Positions 3,270 to 54,291 of a DNA stretch of 64,000 bases are shown here, piece after piece. The notes beneath the pieces are model-generated. The model searched no databases. It was not told the DNA's origin and saw only the letters and a program-made list of their open reading frames with translations. The translations under genes were made by a program, and so were the position numbers. Positions within the stretch are counted from its first letter, which is position 1. Each line of letters starts with the position of its first letter. The DNA is from Actinophytocola sp. (GTDB lineage: Bacteria; Actinomycetota; Actinomycetes; Mycobacteriales; Pseudonocardiaceae): contig NZ_JBOHGA010000005.1 in assembly GCF_050699915.1 (NCBI RefSeq), positions 278-64,277 on the forward strand, read 5' to 3'.

Positions 3270-4795
3270 GGACGCCTCCAGTGTCGACCGGTACGGGCGA
3301 GCATCTTGTTTGCCGAGCCCGGCCCCCACGTGCCGGCCGAGTAGGACTCCGGCCGACCGCTGGCGTGCCATGCCCGGATCACCGGGTCGAGGATCTCCCA
3401 GGACCGCTCGACCTCGTCGTTCATCGGGAACAGCGAGGGCTCGCCCAGCAGCACGTCCAGGATCAGCCGCTCGTAGGCCTCGGGGGAGGACTCGGTGAAG
3501 GAGTGGCCGTAGCTGAAGTCCATGTTGACGTCCCGGACCTCCATCGTGGAGCCGGGGACCTTCGAGCCGAACCGCATGGTGACGCCCTCGTCCGGCTGCA
3601 CCCGGAACACGAGCGCGTTCTGGCCGAGCTCCTCGGTGGACGTCGCGTCGAACGGCAGGTGCGGGGCGCGCTTGAACACGACCGCGATCTCGGTGACCCG
3701 CCGGCCCAGCCGCTTGCCGGTGCGCAGGTAGAACGGCACGCCCGCCCAGCGGCGGGTGTCGATCTGCAGCTCGATCGCCGCGAAGGTCTCGGTGGTGGAG
3801 TCCTTCGCGAAGCCGCCCTCCTCCAGCAGGCCGGGCACCTTCTGCCCGCCCTGCCAGCCGCCGGTGTACTGGCCGCGCGCTGTCGTCTCGGAGAACGGGC
3901 TCGCTGCCTTGGTCGCCGCGAGGATCTTGGCCTTCTCCGCCCGGACCGCCTGCGGCCCGAAGGAGATCGGCTCCTCCATCGCGGTCAGTGCGAGCAGCTG
4001 CAGCAGGTGGTTCTGGATCACGTCGCGGGCGGCGCCGATGCCGTCGTAGTAGCCGGCGCGCCCGCCGAGGCCGATGTCCTCGGCCATGGTGATCTGCACG
4101 TGGTCGACGTAGTTCGAGTTCCAGATCGGCTCGAACAGCTGGTTCGCGAACCGCAGCGCCAGGATGTTCTGCACGGTCTCCTTGCCGAGGTAGTGGTCGA
4201 TGCGGAACACCGACTCCTCGGGGAAGACCCCGTTGACGATCTCGTTCAGCCGCCGGGCGCTGGTCAGGTCGTGCCCGAACGGCTTCTCGATGACCACCCG
4301 GCGCCACTGGTCGAACGTCGGCGCCGCCAGCCCGGTGCGGGCGAGCTGCTTGATGACCTTCTCGAACGCGCCGGGCGGGATCGACAGATAGAAGGCGTGG
4401 TTGCCGGCCGTGCCGCGGATGCGGTCGAGGTCGGTGACCGTCGTGACGAGGTTGTCGAACGCGCCGTCGTCGTCGAACGAGCCCTGCACGAACCGGCACC
4501 CCTCGGCGAGCCGGTCCCAGACCGACTGCCGGAACGGGGTCCGCGCGTGCTCCTTGACCGCGTCGAACACGACCTGGCTGAAGTCCTCGTCGGCCCAGTC
4601 CCGGCGGGCGAAGCCGACCAGCGAGAAGCCGGGCGGCAGCAGGCCGCGGTTGGCCAGGTCGTAGATCGCCGGCATCAGCTTCTTGCGGGAGAGGTCGCCG
4701 GTGACCCCGAAGATCACCAGGCCGCACGGCCCGGCGATCGTGGGCAGTCGCTTGTCCCGCCCGTCGCGCAGCGGGTTCTGCCAGGTACGTGTCAT
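3266..4795 (-). CDS. zwf: Glucose-6-phosphate 1-dehydrogenase
   Basis: IFGVTGDLSRKKL, RIDHYLGKETVQN, RWAGVPFYLRTGKRL. Confidence 0.97.
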   Translation of the reverse strand: MTRTWQNPLRDGRDKRLPTIAGPCGLVIFGVTGDLSRKKLMPAIYDLANRGLLPPGFSLVGFARRDWADEDFSQVVFDAVKEHARTPFRQSVWDRLAEGCRFVQGSFDDDGAFDNLVTTVTDLDRIRGTAGNHAFYLSIPPGAFEKVIKQLARTGLAAPTFDQWRRVVIEKPFGHDLTSARRLNEIVNGVFPEESVFRIDHYLGKETVQNILALRFANQLFEPIWNSNYVDHVQITMAEDIGLGGRAGYYDGIGAARDVIQNHLLQLLALTAMEEPISFGPQAVRAEKAKILAATKAASPFSETTARGQYTGGWQGGQKVPGLLEEGGFAKDSTTETFAAIELQIDTRRWAGVPFYLRTGKRLGRRVTEIAVVFKRAPHLPFDATSTEELGQNALVFRVQPDEGVTMRFGSKVPGSTMEVRDVNMDFSYGHSFTESSPEAYERLILDVLLGEPSLFPMNDEVERSWEILDPVIRAWHASGRPESYSAGTWGPGSANKMLARTGRHWRRP

Positions 4796-7544: not shown

Positions 7545-9664
7545 GCCTGCCCCTCCAATTTCCGTAGCGAGTTGCGAGCCGCCGTCACCACCGCTTCGGA
7601 GGTGAAGCCGAACTCGCGAAACAGAGTCTTGTAGTCCGCCGAGGCGCCGAAGTGCTCGATCGAGACGACCTCGCCGGCATCGCCGACGAACCGGTGCCAC
7701 GGCTGCGCGATGCCGGCCTCCACGGCCACCCGGGCCCGCACCGACGGTGGGATCACCTCGTCGCGGTAGGCCTCGTCCTGCGCGTCGAACCATTCCACGG
7801 ACGGCATCGAGACCACTCTGGTTGGAACGCCGTCGGCCTCCAGGATCTTCCGTGCCTCCACCGCCATCTGCAGCTCCGAGCCGGTGGCGACCAACACGAC
7901 CCGGGGCACCCCGGCCGAGGCCGCGGTGGATTCTCTGGCCAACACGTAGCCGCCCCGGCGCACGCCCTCCGCGGCGAGCTCCTTGGTGCCCTCGAGCACC
8001 GGCAGGTTCTGCCGGGTCAGCGCCAGGCCCACCGGCTGGGTGTGCTGGCCGAGGATCGCCCGCCAGGCCGCGGCGGTCTCGTTCGCGTCGCCCGGGCGGA
8101 GAATGACCAGGCCGGGGATCGCCCGCAGCGCGGCGAGGTGCTCGATCGGCTGGTGGGTCGGACCGTCCTCGCCGAGGCCGATCGAGTCGTGCGTCCAGAC
8201 GTAGGTGACCGGCAGCTGCTGCAGCGCGGCCAGCCGCACCGGCGGGCGCATGTAGTCGCTGAACACCAGGAACGTCGCGCCGTACGGGCGGGTCGGGCCG
8301 TGCAGCACGATGCCGTTGAGGATCGAGCCCATCGCGTGCTCGCGGACGCCGAAGTGCAGCGTGCGGCCGTAGGGGTCGGCGTTCCACTGCGTCGTGGACG
8401 CCTTGTGCGGGCCGAACGAGTTGGCACCCTTCATCGTGGTGTTGTTGCTCTCCGCGAGGTCCGCGGAGCCGCCCCACAGCTCGGGCAGGACGTCCGCCAG
8501 CGCGCTCAGCACCTCGCCGGACGCCTTGCGGGTGGCCAGGCCCTTTTCGTCGGGGTCCCAGCTGGGCAGGGCGTCGGTCCAGCCGTTCGGCAGCCGGTAG
8601 GCCGACGCCCGGTCGAGCAGCTCCTTGCGCACCGGGTTGGCCCGCGCCCAGCTGTCGAACGCGACCTCCCACTCGGCGCGGACCTGCTTGCCGCGCTCGG
8701 CGACCATCCGGGAGTGGGCCAGCACGTCGTGCTCCACGGCGAACTTCTGGTCCGGGTCGAAGCCGAGGATCTTCTTGACCTCGCGGACCTCGTCCTCGCC
8801 CAGTGCCGCGCCGTGTGCCTTGCCGGTGTTCATCTTGTTGGGCGCCGGGTAGCCGATGACGGTCTTGAGCAGGATGAACGAGGGGCGGCCGGTCTCCGCC
8901 TTCGCCGCCTCGACGGCCGCCAGGATCGCGGTGACGTCCTCGCCGCTCTCCACGACCTGGACGTGCCAGCCGTAGGCCTCGTACCGCTTCGCGGTGTCCT
9001 CGGACAGCGCGATGTTCGTGTCGTCCTCGATGGAGATCTTGTTGTCGTCGTAGATCAGCACGAGGTTGCCGAGCTCCTGGCGGCCGGCGATCGAGGACGC
9101 CTCGGAGGACACGCCCTCCTCGATGTCGCCGTCGGAGGCGATGACGTAGATGAAGTGGTCGAAGACACTCTCGCCCGGCGCGGCGTCGGGGTCGAAGAGC
9201 CCACGCTCGCGGCGGTTGGCCATGGCCATGCCGACCGCGGAGGCGACGCCCTGGCCCAGCGGCCCGGTGGTGATCTCCACGCCGCGGGTGTGGCCGTGCT
9301 CGGGGTGGCCGGGGGTCAGCGAGCCCCACTTGCGCAGCGCGGCGATGTCGTCGATCTCCAGGCCGTAGCCGGAGAGGAAGAGCTGCAGGTAGAGCGTGAG
9401 GCTGGAGTGGCCGGCGGAGAGCACGAACCGGTCCCGGCCGATCCACTCGGGGTCGTTGGGGTCGTGCCGCATGACGCGCTGGTAGAGGGCGTACGCGGTC
9501 GGCGCCAGGCTCATCGCCGTGCCCGGGTGGCCGTTGCCGGCCTCCTGGACGGCGTCGGCGGCGAGCACCCGGATCGTGTCGACGGCTCGTTTGTCGAGAT
9601 CCGTCCAGTCGTCCGGGGTGTTCTGCGTGGTCAGGCGGGCGAGTTCGTCACTGGTGATGGACAC
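7541..9664 (-). CDS. tkt: Transketolase
   Basis: [30 protein letters not shown] (TPP binding), [16 protein letters not shown]; GTG start inferred. Confidence 0.97.
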
Positions 9665-22666: not shown

Positions 22667-23386
22667 CGAGCAGCAGGCCGAGGGCCGCACCAGGCATGGT
22701 GTGGCGCGTCTGCTGCTGGAGGAAGGGCCGATCGCCACGACCGCCGTCGCCGACACGCTGGGGCTGAGCCCAGCTGCTGTGCGCCGGCACCTGGACGTGC
22801 TGGTCGCCAACGGGGAGGCCGAGTTCCGCGACGCCCCCCGGCGCGGTCAGCGAGGTCGCGGCCGGCCGGCCAAGCTCTGGCTGCTGACCGAGACCGGCCG
22901 GGCCCGGTTCGGCCACGCCTACGACGACCTGGCCATCGCGGCCATCCGGTTCGTCGCGGAGGCCGGCGGCGAGACCGCCGTGCGCGCCTTCGCGGAGCGT
23001 CGGGCGGCCACGCTGGTCGACCGGCACCGCACCGCGGTGACCGCCCAAGCAGAGGTCACGGGCCGCGCCAAGGCCCTCGCGACCGCCCTCACGCGAGAGG
23101 GTTACGCTGCGTCGACGCGGCGGGTCGGGACAGGGGAGCAGCTCTGCCAGCACCACTGCCCGGTCGCTCACGTCGCCGCGGAGTTCCCCCAGCTGTGCGA
23201 GGTCGAGACGGCGGCGTTCGCCGACCTGCTCGGCACCCACGTCCAGCGGCTCGCGACCATCGCACGCGGAGACGCCGTGTGCACCACCCACGTACCGCTC
23301 GGCGGCCCCGAACCCGCAGAGCCGGGCGCGCAAGGGTTGATCCAGATCGACCCGCCTGCGACCACCACAACCGAAGGGACGCCTTC

Positions 23387-23390
<4 letters not shown>
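22659..23390 (+). CDS. sufR: SUF operon regulator SufR
   Basis: N-terminal HTH ([14 protein letters not shown]) with Cys motif QHHCPV...LCEVE...CTTHV. Confidence 0.9.
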
Positions 23391-24829
<1,439 letters not shown>

Positions 24830-27118: not shown

Positions 27119-28378
27119 ATGAGCACCACCACAGCCGCACCGCTGGATGTCGAGACGATCCGCAAGGACTTCCCGATCCTGTCCCGGCTGGTGCACGGCG
27201 ACCGGCCGCTGGTGTACCTGGACAACGCGGCGACCTCGCAGAAGCCGCGGCAGGTGCTGGACGCGCTGGTCGAGTACTACGAGAAGCACAACGCCAACGT
27301 CCACCGCGGCATCCACACCCTGGCCGAGGAGGCCACCGCGCTGTACGAGGGCGCGCGGGACAAGGTGGCCGGCTTCATCGGCGCGCCGAGCCGCGACGAG
27401 GTGGTGTTCACCAAGAACTCGTCCGAGGCCATGAACCTGGTGGCCCGGGTGCTCGGCGACGCCGACCCCGGCTACCGGGTCGGTCCCGGCGACGAGATCG
27501 TCATCACCGAGATGGAGCACCACTCCAACATCGTGCCGTGGCACCAGCTCGCGGAGCGGACCGGCGCGACCGTGCGGTGGTTCCGGATCACCGACGACGG
27601 CCGACTCGATCTGTCCACTCTGGACTCCGTGATCACGGAGCGGACGAAGATCGTGTCGATGGTGCACGTGTCGAACCTGCTCGGCACGATCAACCCGGTC
27701 GAGCGGGTCATCGCCCGCGCCCACGAGGTCGGCGCGCTGGTGCTGCTGGACGCCTCGCAGTCCGTGCCGCACCTGCCACTGAACGTGGTCGAGCTGGGCG
27801 CCGACTTCGTCGCGTTCACCGGCCACAAGATGCTGGGCCCGACGGGGATCGGCGTGCTGTGGGGCCGCCACCAGCTGCTGAACGAGCTGCCCCCGTTCCT
27901 CGGCGGCGGCGAGATGATCGAGCTGGTCACCATGGAGCGGTCGACGTTCGCCGCCCCGCCGCACAAGTTCGAGGCCGGCACTCCGCCGATCGCGGAGGCG
28001 GTCGGGCTCGGTGCCGCGGTCGACTACCTCACCGGCGTCGGCATGCCGGCGATCGCCGCGCACGAGCACGCGCTCACGGAGTACGTGCTGGCGGCGCTCG
28101 CCGAGGTGCCCGGTGTGCGGATCATCGGCCCGCCGACCGCGCAGGACCGGGTCGCCGAGGTGTCGTTCTCGGTCGAGGGCATCCACCCGCACGACGTGGG
28201 CCAGGTGCTCGACGAGCTGGGCATCGCGGTGCGGGTCGGTCACCACTGCGCACGGCCGGCCGTCGTGCGGTACGGAATTCCGGCGACCACCAGGGCGTCG
28301 TTCTACCTGTACAACACCCCCGCCGAGGCGGACGCCCTCGTCGCGGGCCTGGCGCAGGTGAAAAAGGTCTTCGGATGA
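27119..28378 (+). CDS. sufS: Cysteine desulfurase SufS
   Basis: YLDNAATSQKP, NVHRG, FTGHKMLGP, RVGHHCA. Confidence 0.96.
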   Translation: MSTTTAAPLDVETIRKDFPILSRLVHGDRPLVYLDNAATSQKPRQVLDALVEYYEKHNANVHRGIHTLAEEATALYEGARDKVAGFIGAPSRDEVVFTKNSSEAMNLVARVLGDADPGYRVGPGDEIVITEMEHHSNIVPWHQLAERTGATVRWFRITDDGRLDLSTLDSVITERTKIVSMVHVSNLLGTINPVERVIARAHEVGALVLLDASQSVPHLPLNVVELGADFVAFTGHKMLGPTGIGVLWGRHQLLNELPPFLGGGEMIELVTMERSTFAAPPHKFEAGTPPIAEAVGLGAAVDYLTGVGMPAIAAHEHALTEYVLAALAEVPGVRIIGPPTAQDRVAEVSFSVEGIHPHDVGQVLDELGIAVRVGHHCARPAVVRYGIPATTRASFYLYNTPAEADALVAGLAQVKKVFG

Positions 28379-28503
28379 ACTCGAAACAGGTCCCTAAGGG
28401 GAACGGGACGCGAACCGGCCACAAGTACGTGGCCAAGCCGCACCCGACGGCGGAACGTGACCAACGCTTTGAGTCGCGGGGAGGCGGGACGGTCTTCACA
28501 TGA
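28375..28503 (+). other. MIRU-like intercistronic element with a 42-aa ORF coupled to sufS and sufU
   Basis: ATGA overlaps at both ends; MNSKQVPKGNGTRTGHKYVAKPHPTAERDQRFESRGGGTVFT; contains the repeat core; ends are imperfect direct repeats. Confidence 0.65.
28393..28429 (+). repeat. Interspersed repeat core, copy 1
   Basis: cctaaggggaacgggacgcgaaccggccacaagtacg; 32/37 identical to the reverse complement of 54238-54274. Confidence 0.8.
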
Positions 28504-28943
28504 ACCTCGAGTCCATGTACCAGGAGATCATCCTGGACCACTACAAGAACCCGCACGGGCGCGGTCTGCGCGAGCCGTTCGACGCCGAGTCCTTTCAGGT
28601 CAACCCGACGTGCGGGGACGAGGTGACACTGCGCGTCGCGGTGTCGGACGACAAGGTCGCTGACGTGTCGTACGAGGGGCAGGGCTGTTCGATCAGCCAG
28701 GCCTCGACGTCGGTGCTGACGGACCTGGTGACCGGCCGGCCCGTCGGCGAGGCACTGTCCACGATGGACGCCTTCGTAGAGATGGTGCAGGGCCGCGGCC
28801 AGGTCGAGCCGAACGAGGAAGTACTGGAGGACGGCGTCGCGTTCGCCGGCGTCGCGAAGTACCCGGCCCGCGTGAAGTGCGCGCTGCTGGGTTGGATGGC
28901 GTTCAAGGACGCGGTGTCCCGAGCGGAAGGAGCCACCCGATGA
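28500..28943 (+). CDS. sufU: SUF system NifU-like protein SufU
   Basis: YQEIILDHY, NPTCGDE, GCSISQAS, RVKCALL. Confidence 0.95.
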   Translation: MNLESMYQEIILDHYKNPHGRGLREPFDAESFQVNPTCGDEVTLRVAVSDDKVADVSYEGQGCSISQASTSVLTDLVTGRPVGEALSTMDAFVEMVQGRGQVEPNEEVLEDGVAFAGVAKYPARVKCALLGWMAFKDAVSRAEGATR

Positions 28944-29323
28944 CCGATGTGGACCGCGGCGTGGAGTCGCTGCCCGAACCCCCCGCCCCCAAGGCCGACG
29001 TGGCCGCGATCGAGGACCTCGAGGAGGCCATGCGCGACGTGGTCGACCCCGAGCTCGGGATCAACGTCGTGGACCTCGGCCTGGTGTACGACATCCGGGT
29101 GGAGGAGGACAACACCGCGACCCTGGACATGACGCTGACGTCGGCGGCCTGCCCGCTGACGGACGTCATCGAGGACCAGACCCGCGCGGCGCTGACCGCC
29201 GGCCCGGGCGGCGGCCTAGTCGGCGACTTCCGGATCAACTGGGTCTGGATGCCGCCGTGGGGCCCGGAGAAGATCACCGACGACGGCCGCGAGCAGCTGC
29301 GCGCGCTGGGCTTCACGATCTAG
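28940..29323 (+). CDS. sufT: DUF59 Fe-S maturation protein SufT
   Basis: DPELGINVVDLGLVY, TSAACPL, WMPPW. Confidence 0.92.
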   Translation: MTDVDRGVESLPEPPAPKADVAAIEDLEEAMRDVVDPELGINVVDLGLVYDIRVEEDNTATLDMTLTSAACPLTDVIEDQTRAALTAGPGGGLVGDFRINWVWMPPWGPEKITDDGREQLRALGFTI

Positions 29324-53317: not shown

Positions 53318-54175
53318 GTGGTTATCGAGAGTGTCGGGGTTGTCGGCTGCGGGCTGATGGGGTCGGGCATCGCGGAGGTCTGCGCGCGTGCCGGGCTGGA
53401 CGTCGTGGTCACCGAGGTGAACCAGGACGCGCTCACCGCCGGTCGCGCGCGGGTGGAGAAGTCCCTCGCACGGGCGGTGCGCAGCGGCAAGCTCGACGAG
53501 GCCGGCCGGGACGCCGCCCTCGGGCGGATGCGGTTCAGTGAGGACCTCGGCGACTTCGCCGACCGGCAGCTCGTCGTCGAGGCCGTCGCGGAGAACGAGC
53601 AGATCAAGACCGACGTGTTCACCACTCTCGACAAGGTCGTCACCGACCCGGAGGCGATCTTCGCGTCCAACACGTCCTCGATCCCGATCATGAAGCTGGG
53701 CATGGCCACGTCGCGGCCCCAACAGGTGATCGGCATCCACTTCTTCAACCCGGTGCCGGTGCTCAAGCTGGTCGAGCTGGTGCCCTCGCTGCTCACCGGC
53801 GAGACCACCAAGGAGCGCGCGGACAGGTTCGTCGAGGACCAGCTGGGCAAGGAGGTCATCCTGTCCCAGGACCGCGCGGGCTTCGTGGTGAACGCGCTGC
53901 TCGTGCCGTACCTGCTGTCCGCGATCCGGATGCTGGAGTCCGGGTTCGCCTCGCCCGAGGACATCGACACCGGCATGGTGCAGGGCTGTGCGCACCCGAT
54001 GGGCCCGCTGCGGCTGACCGACCTGATCGGCCTGGACACGACGAAGGCCATCGCCGAGTCGATGTACGCCGAGTTCAAGGAGCCGCTCTACTCACCGCCA
54101 CCGCTGCTGCTGCGCATGGTCGACGCGGGTCTGCTTGGCAAGAAGAGCCAACGCGGCTTCTACGACTACCACTAG
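53318..54175 (+). CDS. hbd: 3-hydroxybutyryl-CoA dehydrogenase
   Basis: GCGLMGSG, SNTSS, HFFNP, HPMGPL. Confidence 0.93.
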   Translation: MVIESVGVVGCGLMGSGIAEVCARAGLDVVVTEVNQDALTAGRARVEKSLARAVRSGKLDEAGRDAALGRMRFSEDLGDFADRQLVVEAVAENEQIKTDVFTTLDKVVTDPEAIFASNTSSIPIMKLGMATSRPQQVIGIHFFNPVPVLKLVELVPSLLTGETTKERADRFVEDQLGKEVILSQDRAGFVVNALLVPYLLSAIRMLESGFASPEDIDTGMVQGCAHPMGPLRLTDLIGLDTTKAIAESMYAEFKEPLYSPPPLLLRMVDAGLLGKKSQRGFYDYH

Positions 54176-54213
54176 CCAGTCCGCCTCCCCGGAATTCAAA
54201 CGTTCGGTCGCCT

Positions 54214-54291
54214 GAGTTCGCACCTTCCGGTTTCGTGCGTACTTGTGGCTGGGTTGCGTCGCGTTCCCCTGAGGTGCGGTTTTGCGCACTC
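54214..54291 (-). repeat. Interspersed repeat, copy 2 (core 54238-54274) within inverted arms
   Basis: Core matches 28393-28429; cgcacct (54219) pairs with aggtgcg (54272), and gagttcgca with tgcgcactc. Confidence 0.8.

What the first reader, a model, noticed from the sequence alone, without database searches (positions are those of the whole stretch)
28366..28510. MIRU-like coupling mini-ORF between sufS and sufU
Seen: a 42-codon ORF whose ATG overlaps the sufS TGA and whose TGA overlaps the sufU ATG. Its ends are imperfect direct repeats (ggtcttcggatgaac-tcga at 28366 and ggtcttcacatgaacctcga at 28491). It has internal stems (actcgaa/tttgagt, gtccc/gggac, ggccac/gtggcc, gccg/cggc) and the repeat core. 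Established: mycobacterial MIRUs are intercistronic units whose small ORFs overlap flanking stop and start codons. Inference: an inserted element that keeps translational coupling, so it is tolerated in an essential operon and might tune SufS:SufU ratios.
Basis: partly seen in the sequence, partly recalled or inferred. Interest (0 to 1): 0.65.

Follow-up and report, generated by a model that had tools for sequence, protein, structure and literature searches.

The report
MIRU-like relay repeat between sufS and sufU
The 125 bases between sufS and sufU are one copy of a small repeat, undescribed as far as I could find, that sits in the overlapping stop/start junctions of operon genes in Pseudonocardiaceae and keeps a throw-away reading frame open across itself, probably to pass ribosomes on to the next gene, as proposed for the MIRU repeats of mycobacteria.

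Summary
sufS ends at TGA 28376-28378. A 42-codon ORF runs from ATG 28375 to TGA 28501-28503. sufU starts at ATG 28500. The two ~20-nt end repeats are real.

Thirteen congeners have an empty site, AAGGTCTTCGGATGAACCTCGAG, so the 125 nt are an insertion that duplicated the ATGA junction.

The insert is one of 61 copies of a 105-145-nt repeat in this Actinophytocola genome. A sequence model finds the family in 33 of 151 sampled genomes (18 of 60 genera) of the same family.

Of 18 sense copies with NTGA on both sides:
- 15 have a spacing of 2 mod 3 (p = 2e-5).
- 13 form a complete relay ORF.
- The frame from the retained start is open in 15 of 18, against 7 of 36 for the other two frames.

Seven copies from five other genera all show the same arrangement. 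All nine filled or remnant sufS-sufU junctions keep a bridging ORF, through compensating indels in three lineages.

All three element frames are used, so the peptide is not conserved. The stems fold no better than shuffles. Translation itself is not shown.

Verdict: a new family of a known kind, MIRU-like. This scan has already noted such families on other DNA. Unexplained: target duplications of 16-68 nt and repeated precise loss.

The parts
27119..28378 (+). sufS (cysteine desulfurase); its TGA stop at 28376-28378 overlaps the mini-ORF ATG
   Evidence: ORF list; TIGR01979 SufS E 7e-179
28366..28384 (+). Left copy of the target duplication (ggtcttcggatgaac-tcga). It holds the native sufS end and the former sufU start, ATGA
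   Evidence: the empty site GGTCTTCGGATGAACCTCGA in 13 congeners
28375..28503 (+). 42-codon relay mini-ORF: ATG overlaps the sufS TGA, and its TGA overlaps the sufU ATG
   Evidence: A bridging ORF is kept in all 9 filled or remnant alleles
28388..28493 (+). Copy of the dispersed repeat (B-type, 5'-shortened), as matched by the family HMM
   Evidence: nhmmer (C5:28668-28769, E 8.5e-19); alignments
28393..28410 (+). Conserved 5' block CCTAAGGGGAACGGGACG of the family
   Evidence: 90% or more conserved columns; spacing to the 3' block is fixed at 79-81 nt
28478..28489 (+). Conserved 3' block GGGGAGGCGGGA with a Shine-Dalgarno-like GGAGG at 28480-28484. Here it lies 15 nt before the sufU ATG, because the right target-duplication copy intervenes
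   Evidence: Invariant GGAGGCGG. In other copies it lies 3-9 nt before the downstream start
28491..28510 (+). Right copy of the target duplication (ggtcttcacatgaacctcga), holding the working sufU start
   Evidence: It is trimmed by 7-8 nt in G023, G009, G011 and G022
28500..28943 (+). sufU (sulfur transfer protein)
   Evidence: TIGR01994 E 7e-50
54175..54279 (-). Second full copy of the same repeat family in the window. Its 3' end abuts the stop codon of a gene that reads towards it
   Evidence: nhmmer (C5:54454-54555, minus strand); context

Best explanation
The sufS-sufU spacer is a copy of a dispersed, formerly mobile repeat family of Pseudonocardiaceae. Full-length B-type units measure about 140 nt from NTGA to NTGA. 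A-type units are about 145 nt.

Shown: the copy was inserted into the ancestral ATGA stop/start overlap of sufS and sufU, and about 20 nt of the junction were duplicated. sufS therefore keeps its stop in the left copy and sufU keeps its start in the right copy.

Inferred mechanism: the old sufU start codon, still overlapping the sufS stop, now opens a 42-codon frame that runs through the element and stops on the TGA overlapping the new sufU ATG. Ribosomes that finish sufS restart on the mini-ORF, translate it, and terminate on top of the sufU start, where they reinitiate. This is termination-reinitiation coupling at -4 spacing, performed twice. The element also carries a GGAGG ribosome-binding site at its 3' end. 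In most copies it lies 3-9 nt before the downstream start. In this copy it is 15 nt away, so the relay should matter more here.

What selection keeps is the open frame and its phase, not the peptide. The result is that an insertion into an Fe-S assembly operon costs little.
For: Insertion:
- Thirteen congeners have the empty junction. Five have the full element, one has an internal deletion, and three have 13-23-nt remnants of the element's 3' end.
- Metagenome contigs hold the exact empty allele, a joint from 28365 to 28491 that skips 125 nt.

Family:
- 61 copies in the genome, with two conserved blocks at a fixed spacing of 79-81 nt.
- Found in 33 of 151 sampled genomes and 18 of 60 genera of the family, and in named Actinophytocola, Actinokineospora, Labedaea, Actinocrispum and Saccharopolyspora records.

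Phase constraint, in 18 sense copies with NTGA on both sides:
- 15 have an NTGA-to-NTGA distance of 2 mod 3 (binomial p = 1.9e-5), although lengths range from 119 to 188 nt.
- The frame from the retained NTG is open in 15 of 18, against 7 of 36 for the other two frames.
- 13 are complete relay ORFs (p = 2e-12 under one third times the open rate of the other frames).

Independent set: 7 of 7 copies from few-copy genomes of five other genera are ATGA-to-ATGA relay ORFs of 140-161 nt, all 2 mod 3.

Orthologues:
- All 9 sufS-sufU alleles keep a bridging ORF.
- In G009 (-2, -7), G011 (-1, -1, -7) and G022 (-4, -48, -8) separate indels sum to multiples of 3.
- An antisense copy (C20 site) also forms an ATGA-to-ATGA bridge in G000, G008 and G012.

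The peptide is not conserved: all three element frames are used.

The same design is described for MIRUs in PMC12548453 and PMC3184786.
Against: - There is no direct evidence that the mini-ORF is translated, or that sufU expression depends on it. The RNA libraries laid came from relatives and mixed communities and do not show a transcript of this allele.
- Part of the phase bias could be inherited from a 140-nt master unit rather than selected at each site.
- Gene calls rest on GC-by-codon-position heuristics, and I chose the downstream start codons myself.
- About a third of the copies lie between convergent genes or antisense to the operon. No relay is possible or found there, apart from the C20 site. 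Coupling therefore cannot be the only reason the element is tolerated.
- Two of the nine sufS-sufU alleles (G023, G012) end 8 nt inside sufU rather than on the start codon.
Confidence: 0.75

Rival explanations
1. The element is a plain selfish repeat whose own GGAGG site drives the downstream gene. The mini-ORF has no coupling role. Its phase is either inherited from a 140-nt master copy or kept only so that ribosomes starting at the leftover ATG do not read out of frame into sufU.
For: GGAGGCGG is invariant in 16 of 16 aligned copies and lies 3-9 nt before most downstream starts. Five of seven copies from other genera are 140 nt long, or 143, so phase could be built in.
Against: Lengths vary from 119 to 188 nt and still fall in one phase class. 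Orthologous alleles reach a multiple of 3 through two or three separate indels. Remnants of 14 and 23 nt still keep the phase. In this copy the GGAGG is 15 nt from the ATG, a poor spacing.
Confidence: 0.17
2. The spacer is a structured cis-regulatory RNA of the suf operon, for instance an attenuator, a processing site or an iron-sulfur-responsive switch, built from the stems the first reader listed.
For: Complementary segments exist, and the minimum-free-energy fold uses some of them.
Against: Fold z-scores are -0.10 and -0.15. An A-type unit folds worse than its shuffles (z = +2.3). RNAalifold finds no shared helices in 21 or 36 copies. There is no Rfam match and no promoter or terminator pattern. 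The same element sits in unrelated operons (a nuo junction and a pyr-like junction, read from their N-termini, and a cox-like junction). Most congeners lack it.
Confidence: 0.03
3. The mini-ORF encodes a functional micro-protein acting with SufS or SufU.
For: An ORF of 22-43 codons is kept in every filled allele.
Against: The sufS-sufU orthologues read the element in two different frames and give unrelated peptides. Across the family all three frames are used. Conservation in the blocks covers all three codon positions equally. There are no protein family hits.
Confidence: 0.02

Closest known systems
MIRUs, mycobacterial interspersed repetitive units (Supply et al. 1997, as summarised in PMC12548453 and PMC3184786)
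   Same: - Tens of copies of a roughly 100-nt unit per genome.
- Sits inside polycistronic operons at start codons.
- Filled and empty sites, with a tetranucleotide direct repeat (NTGA here).
- A small ORF whose ends overlap the flanking stop and start at -4 spacing.
- Can occur as tandem arrays (L040 and L064).
   Different: - A different actinobacterial family (Pseudonocardiaceae); similarity to MIRU sequences could not be tested here.
- Units are longer (105-145 nt against 40-100).
- It carries an invariant GGAGG at its 3' end.
- Some insertions carry target duplications of 16-68 nt.
- A second subfamily (A-type) lies mainly between convergent genes, abutting a stop codon, with no relay ORF.
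MITEs (miniature inverted-repeat transposable elements)
   Same: Small, non-coding, dispersed, intergenic. Ends are better conserved than the middle. Flanked by direct repeats of target sequence.
   Different: Terminal inverted repeats are weak and inconsistent: a 9-bp CCGCCTCCC/GGGAGGCGG pairing is seen only in some copies. The target duplication has no fixed length. No longer element with the same ends was found in this genome.
REP/BIME and other palindromic extragenic repeats
   Same: Dispersed, and enriched after gene ends and between convergent genes.
   Different: There is no conserved hairpin. Folding energy is no better than for shuffles.
Rickettsia palindromic elements (RPEs), from my own knowledge
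   Same: A repeat tolerated because it can be translated through.
   Different: RPEs insert in frame inside genes and become part of the protein. Here the element stays between genes as its own ORF.
Other MIRU-like relay repeat families noted earlier in this scan (Acidimicrobiia, Gaiellales, Rokubacteria)
   Same: The same ATGA-to-ATGA relay design at operon junctions.
   Different: Word look-up found no shared sequence. Several of those families are described as hairpin-rich, whereas this one is not.

Membership tests
MIRU (mycobacterial interspersed repetitive units) | Dispersed unit of about 40-100 bp, tens of copies per genome | tested here: met
   61 copies. The unit is 105-145 nt, somewhat longer than MIRUs.
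MIRU (mycobacterial interspersed repetitive units) | Lies between genes of an operon, in their orientation | tested here: inconclusive
   By GC-frame heuristics, about 24-29 of 57 copies are sense and between co-directional genes, about 10 lie between convergent genes, and about 9 are antisense.
MIRU (mycobacterial interspersed repetitive units) | Small ORF whose ends overlap the flanking stop and start codons | tested here: met
   13 of 18 NTGA-flanked copies in G000, 7 of 7 in other genera, and 7 of 9 sufS-sufU alleles exactly.
MIRU (mycobacterial interspersed repetitive units) | Filled and empty sites with a short direct repeat of the target | tested here: met
   Empty sites were found for the sufS-sufU, C20 and two nuo junctions. 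The minimal repeat is NTGA, but some duplications are 16-68 nt.
MIRU (mycobacterial interspersed repetitive units) | Tandem arrays with variable unit number | tested here: met
   Two units with period 125 in L040 and three units with period 145 in L064. These arrays are A-type and lie between convergent genes.
MIRU (mycobacterial interspersed repetitive units) | Sequence homology to the mycobacterial MIRU consensus | not testable with these tools
   No MIRU sequence was available from a tool. BLAST gave no element matches in the 16 genomes of other families of the order. I therefore file this as a functional analogue, not a member.
MITE | Conserved terminal inverted repeats | tested here: not met
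   No conserved end pairing in RNAalifold or in the alignments. It is present only in some copies, such as C20.
MITE | Target site duplication of fixed length | tested here: not met
   Duplications range from 4-9 nt up to 15-20, 48 and 68 nt.
MITE | A parent insertion sequence with the same ends | tested here: inconclusive
   All paired 5' and 3' blocks are 76-81 nt apart, and no pairs are kilobases apart. The assembly has 364 contigs, so an insertion sequence could be missing.
REP-type palindromic repeats | Conserved stable hairpin | tested here: not met
   z-scores from -0.9 to +2.3; no consensus helix.
Rfam RNA families | Match to a curated covariance model | tested here: not met
   No match over the element at E up to 10.

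The most novel reading that the evidence does not exclude
The family may spread by a route unlike ordinary transposition. The evidence is 3' ends that are complete and precisely placed, 5' ends of variable length, target duplications of 16-68 nt that are later trimmed, strong preference for SD-plus-NTGA junctions that resemble the element's own 3' end, and reuse of the same junctions in different genera. These fit a copy-choice or template-switching mechanism, or a reverse-transcription-primed one. The flanking duplications would also allow precise excision, which would make these junction insertions reversible.
Probability: 0.2. Interest if true: 0.75.

Novelty: new member of a known kind. 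Interest (0 to 1): 0.5.

Why it matters
This gives a second, sequence-independent and well-populated case of the MIRU design. A repeat can colonise the zero-length junctions of essential operons (suf here, and junctions that read like nuo, pyr and pur) because it rebuilds translational coupling through a disposable ORF.

The natural series at one junction is a ready-made experiment on how much termination-reinitiation and how much a Shine-Dalgarno site contribute to expression of a downstream gene in high-GC actinobacteria. The series runs from empty through 125, 128, 118, 116 and 65 nt to 23, 14 and 13-nt remnants.

Together with the similar families this scan has noted in other phyla, it suggests that relay repeats are a general feature of genomes rich in 4-nt gene overlaps. 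It also matters for annotation: these mini-ORFs and long 'intergenic' spacers inside operons are usually left unexplained.

Tried and rejected
- Rfam scan of 27800-29000 at E up to 10: nothing over the element.
- RNAalifold on 21 A-type and 36 B-type copies: only trivial 2-5-bp helices and no covariation.
- Single-sequence folds with shuffles: no excess stability. I therefore dropped the structured-RNA reading.
- Promoter and terminator scan: none in the element.
- Search for an autonomous parent element, meaning 5' and 3' blocks far apart: none found.
- Reverse transcriptase search: one gene of unclear class on contig C18. I found no link to the element and did not pursue it.
- Literature: 'MIRU' plus Pseudonocardiaceae returned only false hits on 'mirum'. 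'Actinophytocola' plus 'repeat' gave nothing relevant.
- Sequencing runs: only metagenomes and metatranscriptomes holding relatives (share 0.40 or less). They show empty, 7-nt-shorter and remnant-like alleles but cannot show transcription of this allele.
- My first context analysis confused shadow ORFs with genes. I redid it with a GC1 > GC2 filter.
- My early idea that the 5' arm is purely target duplication was wrong. The arm ATGAcccccttgtgccagagccgcgtg recurs at unrelated sites, so it belongs to the full-length element.
- Micro-protein reading: rejected because all three frames are used.

Full report
**What is at the site.** The window carries the actinobacterial suf operon: sufR, sufB, sufD, a Rieske-type ferredoxin, sufC, sufS and sufU.
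- sufS ends with TGA at 28376-28378.
- The ATG at 28375 overlaps that stop and opens a 42-codon ORF (MNSKQVPKGNGT...TVFT) ending with TGA at 28501-28503.
- That TGA overlaps the sufU ATG at 28500.

**It is an insertion.** I compared the junction across 40 relatives.
- Thirteen genomes of the same genus have the undivided sequence AAGGTCTTCGGATGAACCTCGAG, in which the sufS TGA overlaps the sufU ATG.
- Five genomes besides this one have an insert of 116-128 nt at exactly this point, and one more has a 65-nt version with an internal deletion.
- Three have 13-23-nt remnants that match the element's 3' end (GGCGGACCAG).
- The two repeats in the window are therefore a duplication of about 20 nt of the native junction.
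- Metagenome contigs also contain the exact empty allele (a joint skipping 28366-28490), a 7-nt-shorter allele and a remnant-like allele.
- No claim here rests on the unpublished genome G031.

**It belongs to a repeat family.** BLAST and iterated nhmmer find 61 copies in this 6.6-Mb genome.
- Copies share a 5' block (CCTMAGGGGAACGKGACG...CAGCCAC) and a 3' block (GACCAACAC..TTGAATTCCGGGGAGGCGG), separated by a variable middle. The spacing between blocks is fixed at 79-81 nt.
- There are two subfamilies. The B-type (AAGTACGT middle) lies mostly between co-directional genes. The A-type lies mostly with its 3' end (GGCGGACTAG) against the stop codon of a gene reading towards it. The A-type also forms tandem arrays of period 125 and 145 in relatives.
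- Copies are old: median pairwise identity is 66% and the maximum is 91%.
- The genome aligns at 80-89% identity to named Actinophytocola contigs and not to other genera.
- A pattern scan finds the family in Actinophytocola, Actinokineospora, Labedaea, Actinocrispum and Saccharopolyspora indica.
- A sequence-only model finds it in 33 of 151 sampled genomes, 18 of 60 genera, of the same GTDB family.
- It has no Rfam match, and I found no description of it in the literature searched.

**It is not a structured RNA.** The sufS-sufU copy folds no better than dinucleotide shuffles on either strand (z = -0.10 and -0.15). An A-type unit folds worse than its shuffles. RNAalifold finds no shared helices. 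There is no promoter or terminator pattern.

**The relay ORF is a property of the family.** I used GC-by-codon-position heuristics to place flanking genes. In 18 sense copies with NTGA at both the upstream stop and the downstream start:
- 15 have an NTGA-to-NTGA distance of 2 mod 3 (p = 1.9e-5), although distances range from 119 to 188 nt.
- The frame that starts at the retained NTG is free of stops in 15 of 18, against 7 of 36 for the other two frames.
- 13 are complete bridges from one overlap to the next, and two more are fused in frame to the downstream gene.

As an independent set, I fetched seven copies from genomes of five other genera that have only one to four copies. All seven are ATGA-to-ATGA bridges of 140-161 nt, all 2 mod 3. 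By their downstream N-termini, some occupy the same junctions as copies in this genome: one that reads like nuoJ/nuoK and one that reads like pyrB/dihydroorotase. I assigned these gene names by eye, not by a family search.

One copy (C20) is antisense to its operon and still forms an ATGA-to-ATGA bridge on the gene strand in three genomes.

All three frames of the conserved 5' block are used by one bridge or another. The nucleotide conservation has no codon periodicity. So the open frame is kept, not the peptide.

**The orthologous series at sufS-sufU shows the same constraint.**
- The filled alleles are 71-88% identical to each other, each closer than to any paralogue in this genome (63-78%). 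This fits one old insertion.
- All nine filled or remnant alleles keep a bridging ORF. Seven stop on the TGA overlapping the sufU start, and two stop 8 nt further on.
- The alleles differ by several indels that compensate: -2 and -7 in G009; -1, -1 and -7 in G011; -4, -48 and -8 in G022.
- G009, G011 and G022 read the element in a different frame from G000, G006 and G023.

**Loss of the element.** On a tree of the flanking sufS and sufU sequence, filled and empty alleles are interleaved, including inside two well-supported clades. Either the element was lost precisely several times, which the 20-nt flanking repeats would allow, or alleles were exchanged between species. I cannot tell which.

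**How it most likely works.**
- Shown: the insertion, the duplication of the junction, the conserved GGAGG, and the phase and openness bias.
- Inferred: ribosomes terminating sufS reinitiate on the overlapping ATG, translate the 42 codons, terminate on the TGA overlapping the sufU ATG, and reinitiate there. In most copies the element's GGAGG, 3-9 nt upstream of the next start, can add independent initiation. In this copy the right duplication pushes GGAGG to 15 nt from the ATG, so the relay should carry more of the load.
- No translation data exist for this organism, and any effect on the SufS:SufU ratio is untested.

**What remains odd.**
- Target duplications are not of fixed length. Many copies show only NTGA plus 1-5 nt. 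The sufS-sufU copy has about 20 nt, C100 has 16, C277 has 19, C20 has 48 and C113 has 68.
- At the C20 and sufS-sufU sites, relatives with the orthologous insertion have shorter right-hand duplicates. Long duplications therefore seem to be trimmed with time.
- The 3' junction is tight: GGAGGCGG, then 2-9 nt, then NTGA. The 5' arm varies from 13 to 51 nt. The full arm (ATGAcccccttgtgccagagccgcgtg...) recurs at unrelated sites, so it belongs to the element.
- Native junctions resemble the element's own 3' end, for example GGAGGCGAGTCAGCGTGA at one nuo junction.
- These features would fit template switching or a primed copying mechanism better than a cut-and-paste transposase, but nothing here proves it. 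The single reverse transcriptase gene in the genome has no shown link.

**Placement and novelty.**
- The element works like a MIRU and meets the architectural criteria I could test. Homology to MIRU sequences could not be tested, and the host family differs, so I file it as a new family of a known kind rather than a MIRU.
- It fails the MITE criteria of conserved inverted ends and fixed target duplication, and the REP criterion of a conserved hairpin.
- This scan has already recorded 38 MIRU-like notes on other DNA (Acidimicrobiia, Gaiellales, Rokubacteria and others). None shares words with this sequence.
Its suggestion of variable inverted arms is not borne out.

Noticed in passing
G000:C87:20482-20587 and 23348-23453 (L159:583-688 and 3449-3554, minus strand): Two junctions about 3 kb apart in one operon each carry a relay copy of the family. 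The downstream N-terminus MTPTVYLLLSALLF reads like nuoK. Most congeners are empty at both sites. G017 has a 50-nt 5'-shortened version that still bridges ATGA to ATGA. A genome of another genus (L230) has a copy at the same first junction.
   Followed up: partly
L164:540-790 (G000:C113:9540-9790): This copy is flanked by a 68-nt duplication covering the last ~50 nt of the upstream gene, the ATGA, and the first ~14 nt of the next gene. The relay ORF reads through the element into the duplicated gene tail, in frame, and stops on the real junction.
   Followed up: partly
L064:3050-3430 and L040:40-320 (Actinophytocola MAG SMAG_U3546): Tandem arrays of three units (period 145) and two units (period 125, second unit 5'-shortened) of the A-type. 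They fill the gap between two convergent genes from stop codon to stop codon.
   Followed up: partly
G000:C18:50487-50915, minus strand (L229:793-2334): The only reverse transcriptase gene found in the genome, 513 aa. It has weak matches to group II intron RT, Drt3a and AbiA models, all far below their cut-offs, so its class is unclear. No element copy was examined next to it.
   Followed up: partly
L231 and L233 (two other genera) and G000:C77:13291-13396: The same junction holds a family copy in three genera. The gene downstream starts M(S/T)..LLKDVRPYGEG, which looks like a dihydroorotase. This points to either a very old retained insertion or a recurrent hot spot.
   Followed up: no
window 54175-54279 (minus strand): Second full copy of the family in the window. 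Its 3' end lies directly against a reverse-strand stop codon (GGCGGACTGGCTAG). No relay ORF was found.
   Followed up: partly
window 28365/28491, in runs X3, X7, X1 and X8: Environmental libraries hold three other alleles of this junction: the exact empty form, a form 7 nt shorter at 28491 (like G023), and one with 22 other letters between 28379 and 28501. The site is therefore polymorphic in nature.
   Followed up: no
G000:C36:8732-8836 and 9089-9195 (L163): Two family copies lie only about 250 nt apart, with a short ORF-sized gap between them. I did not examine what lies between.
   Followed up: no
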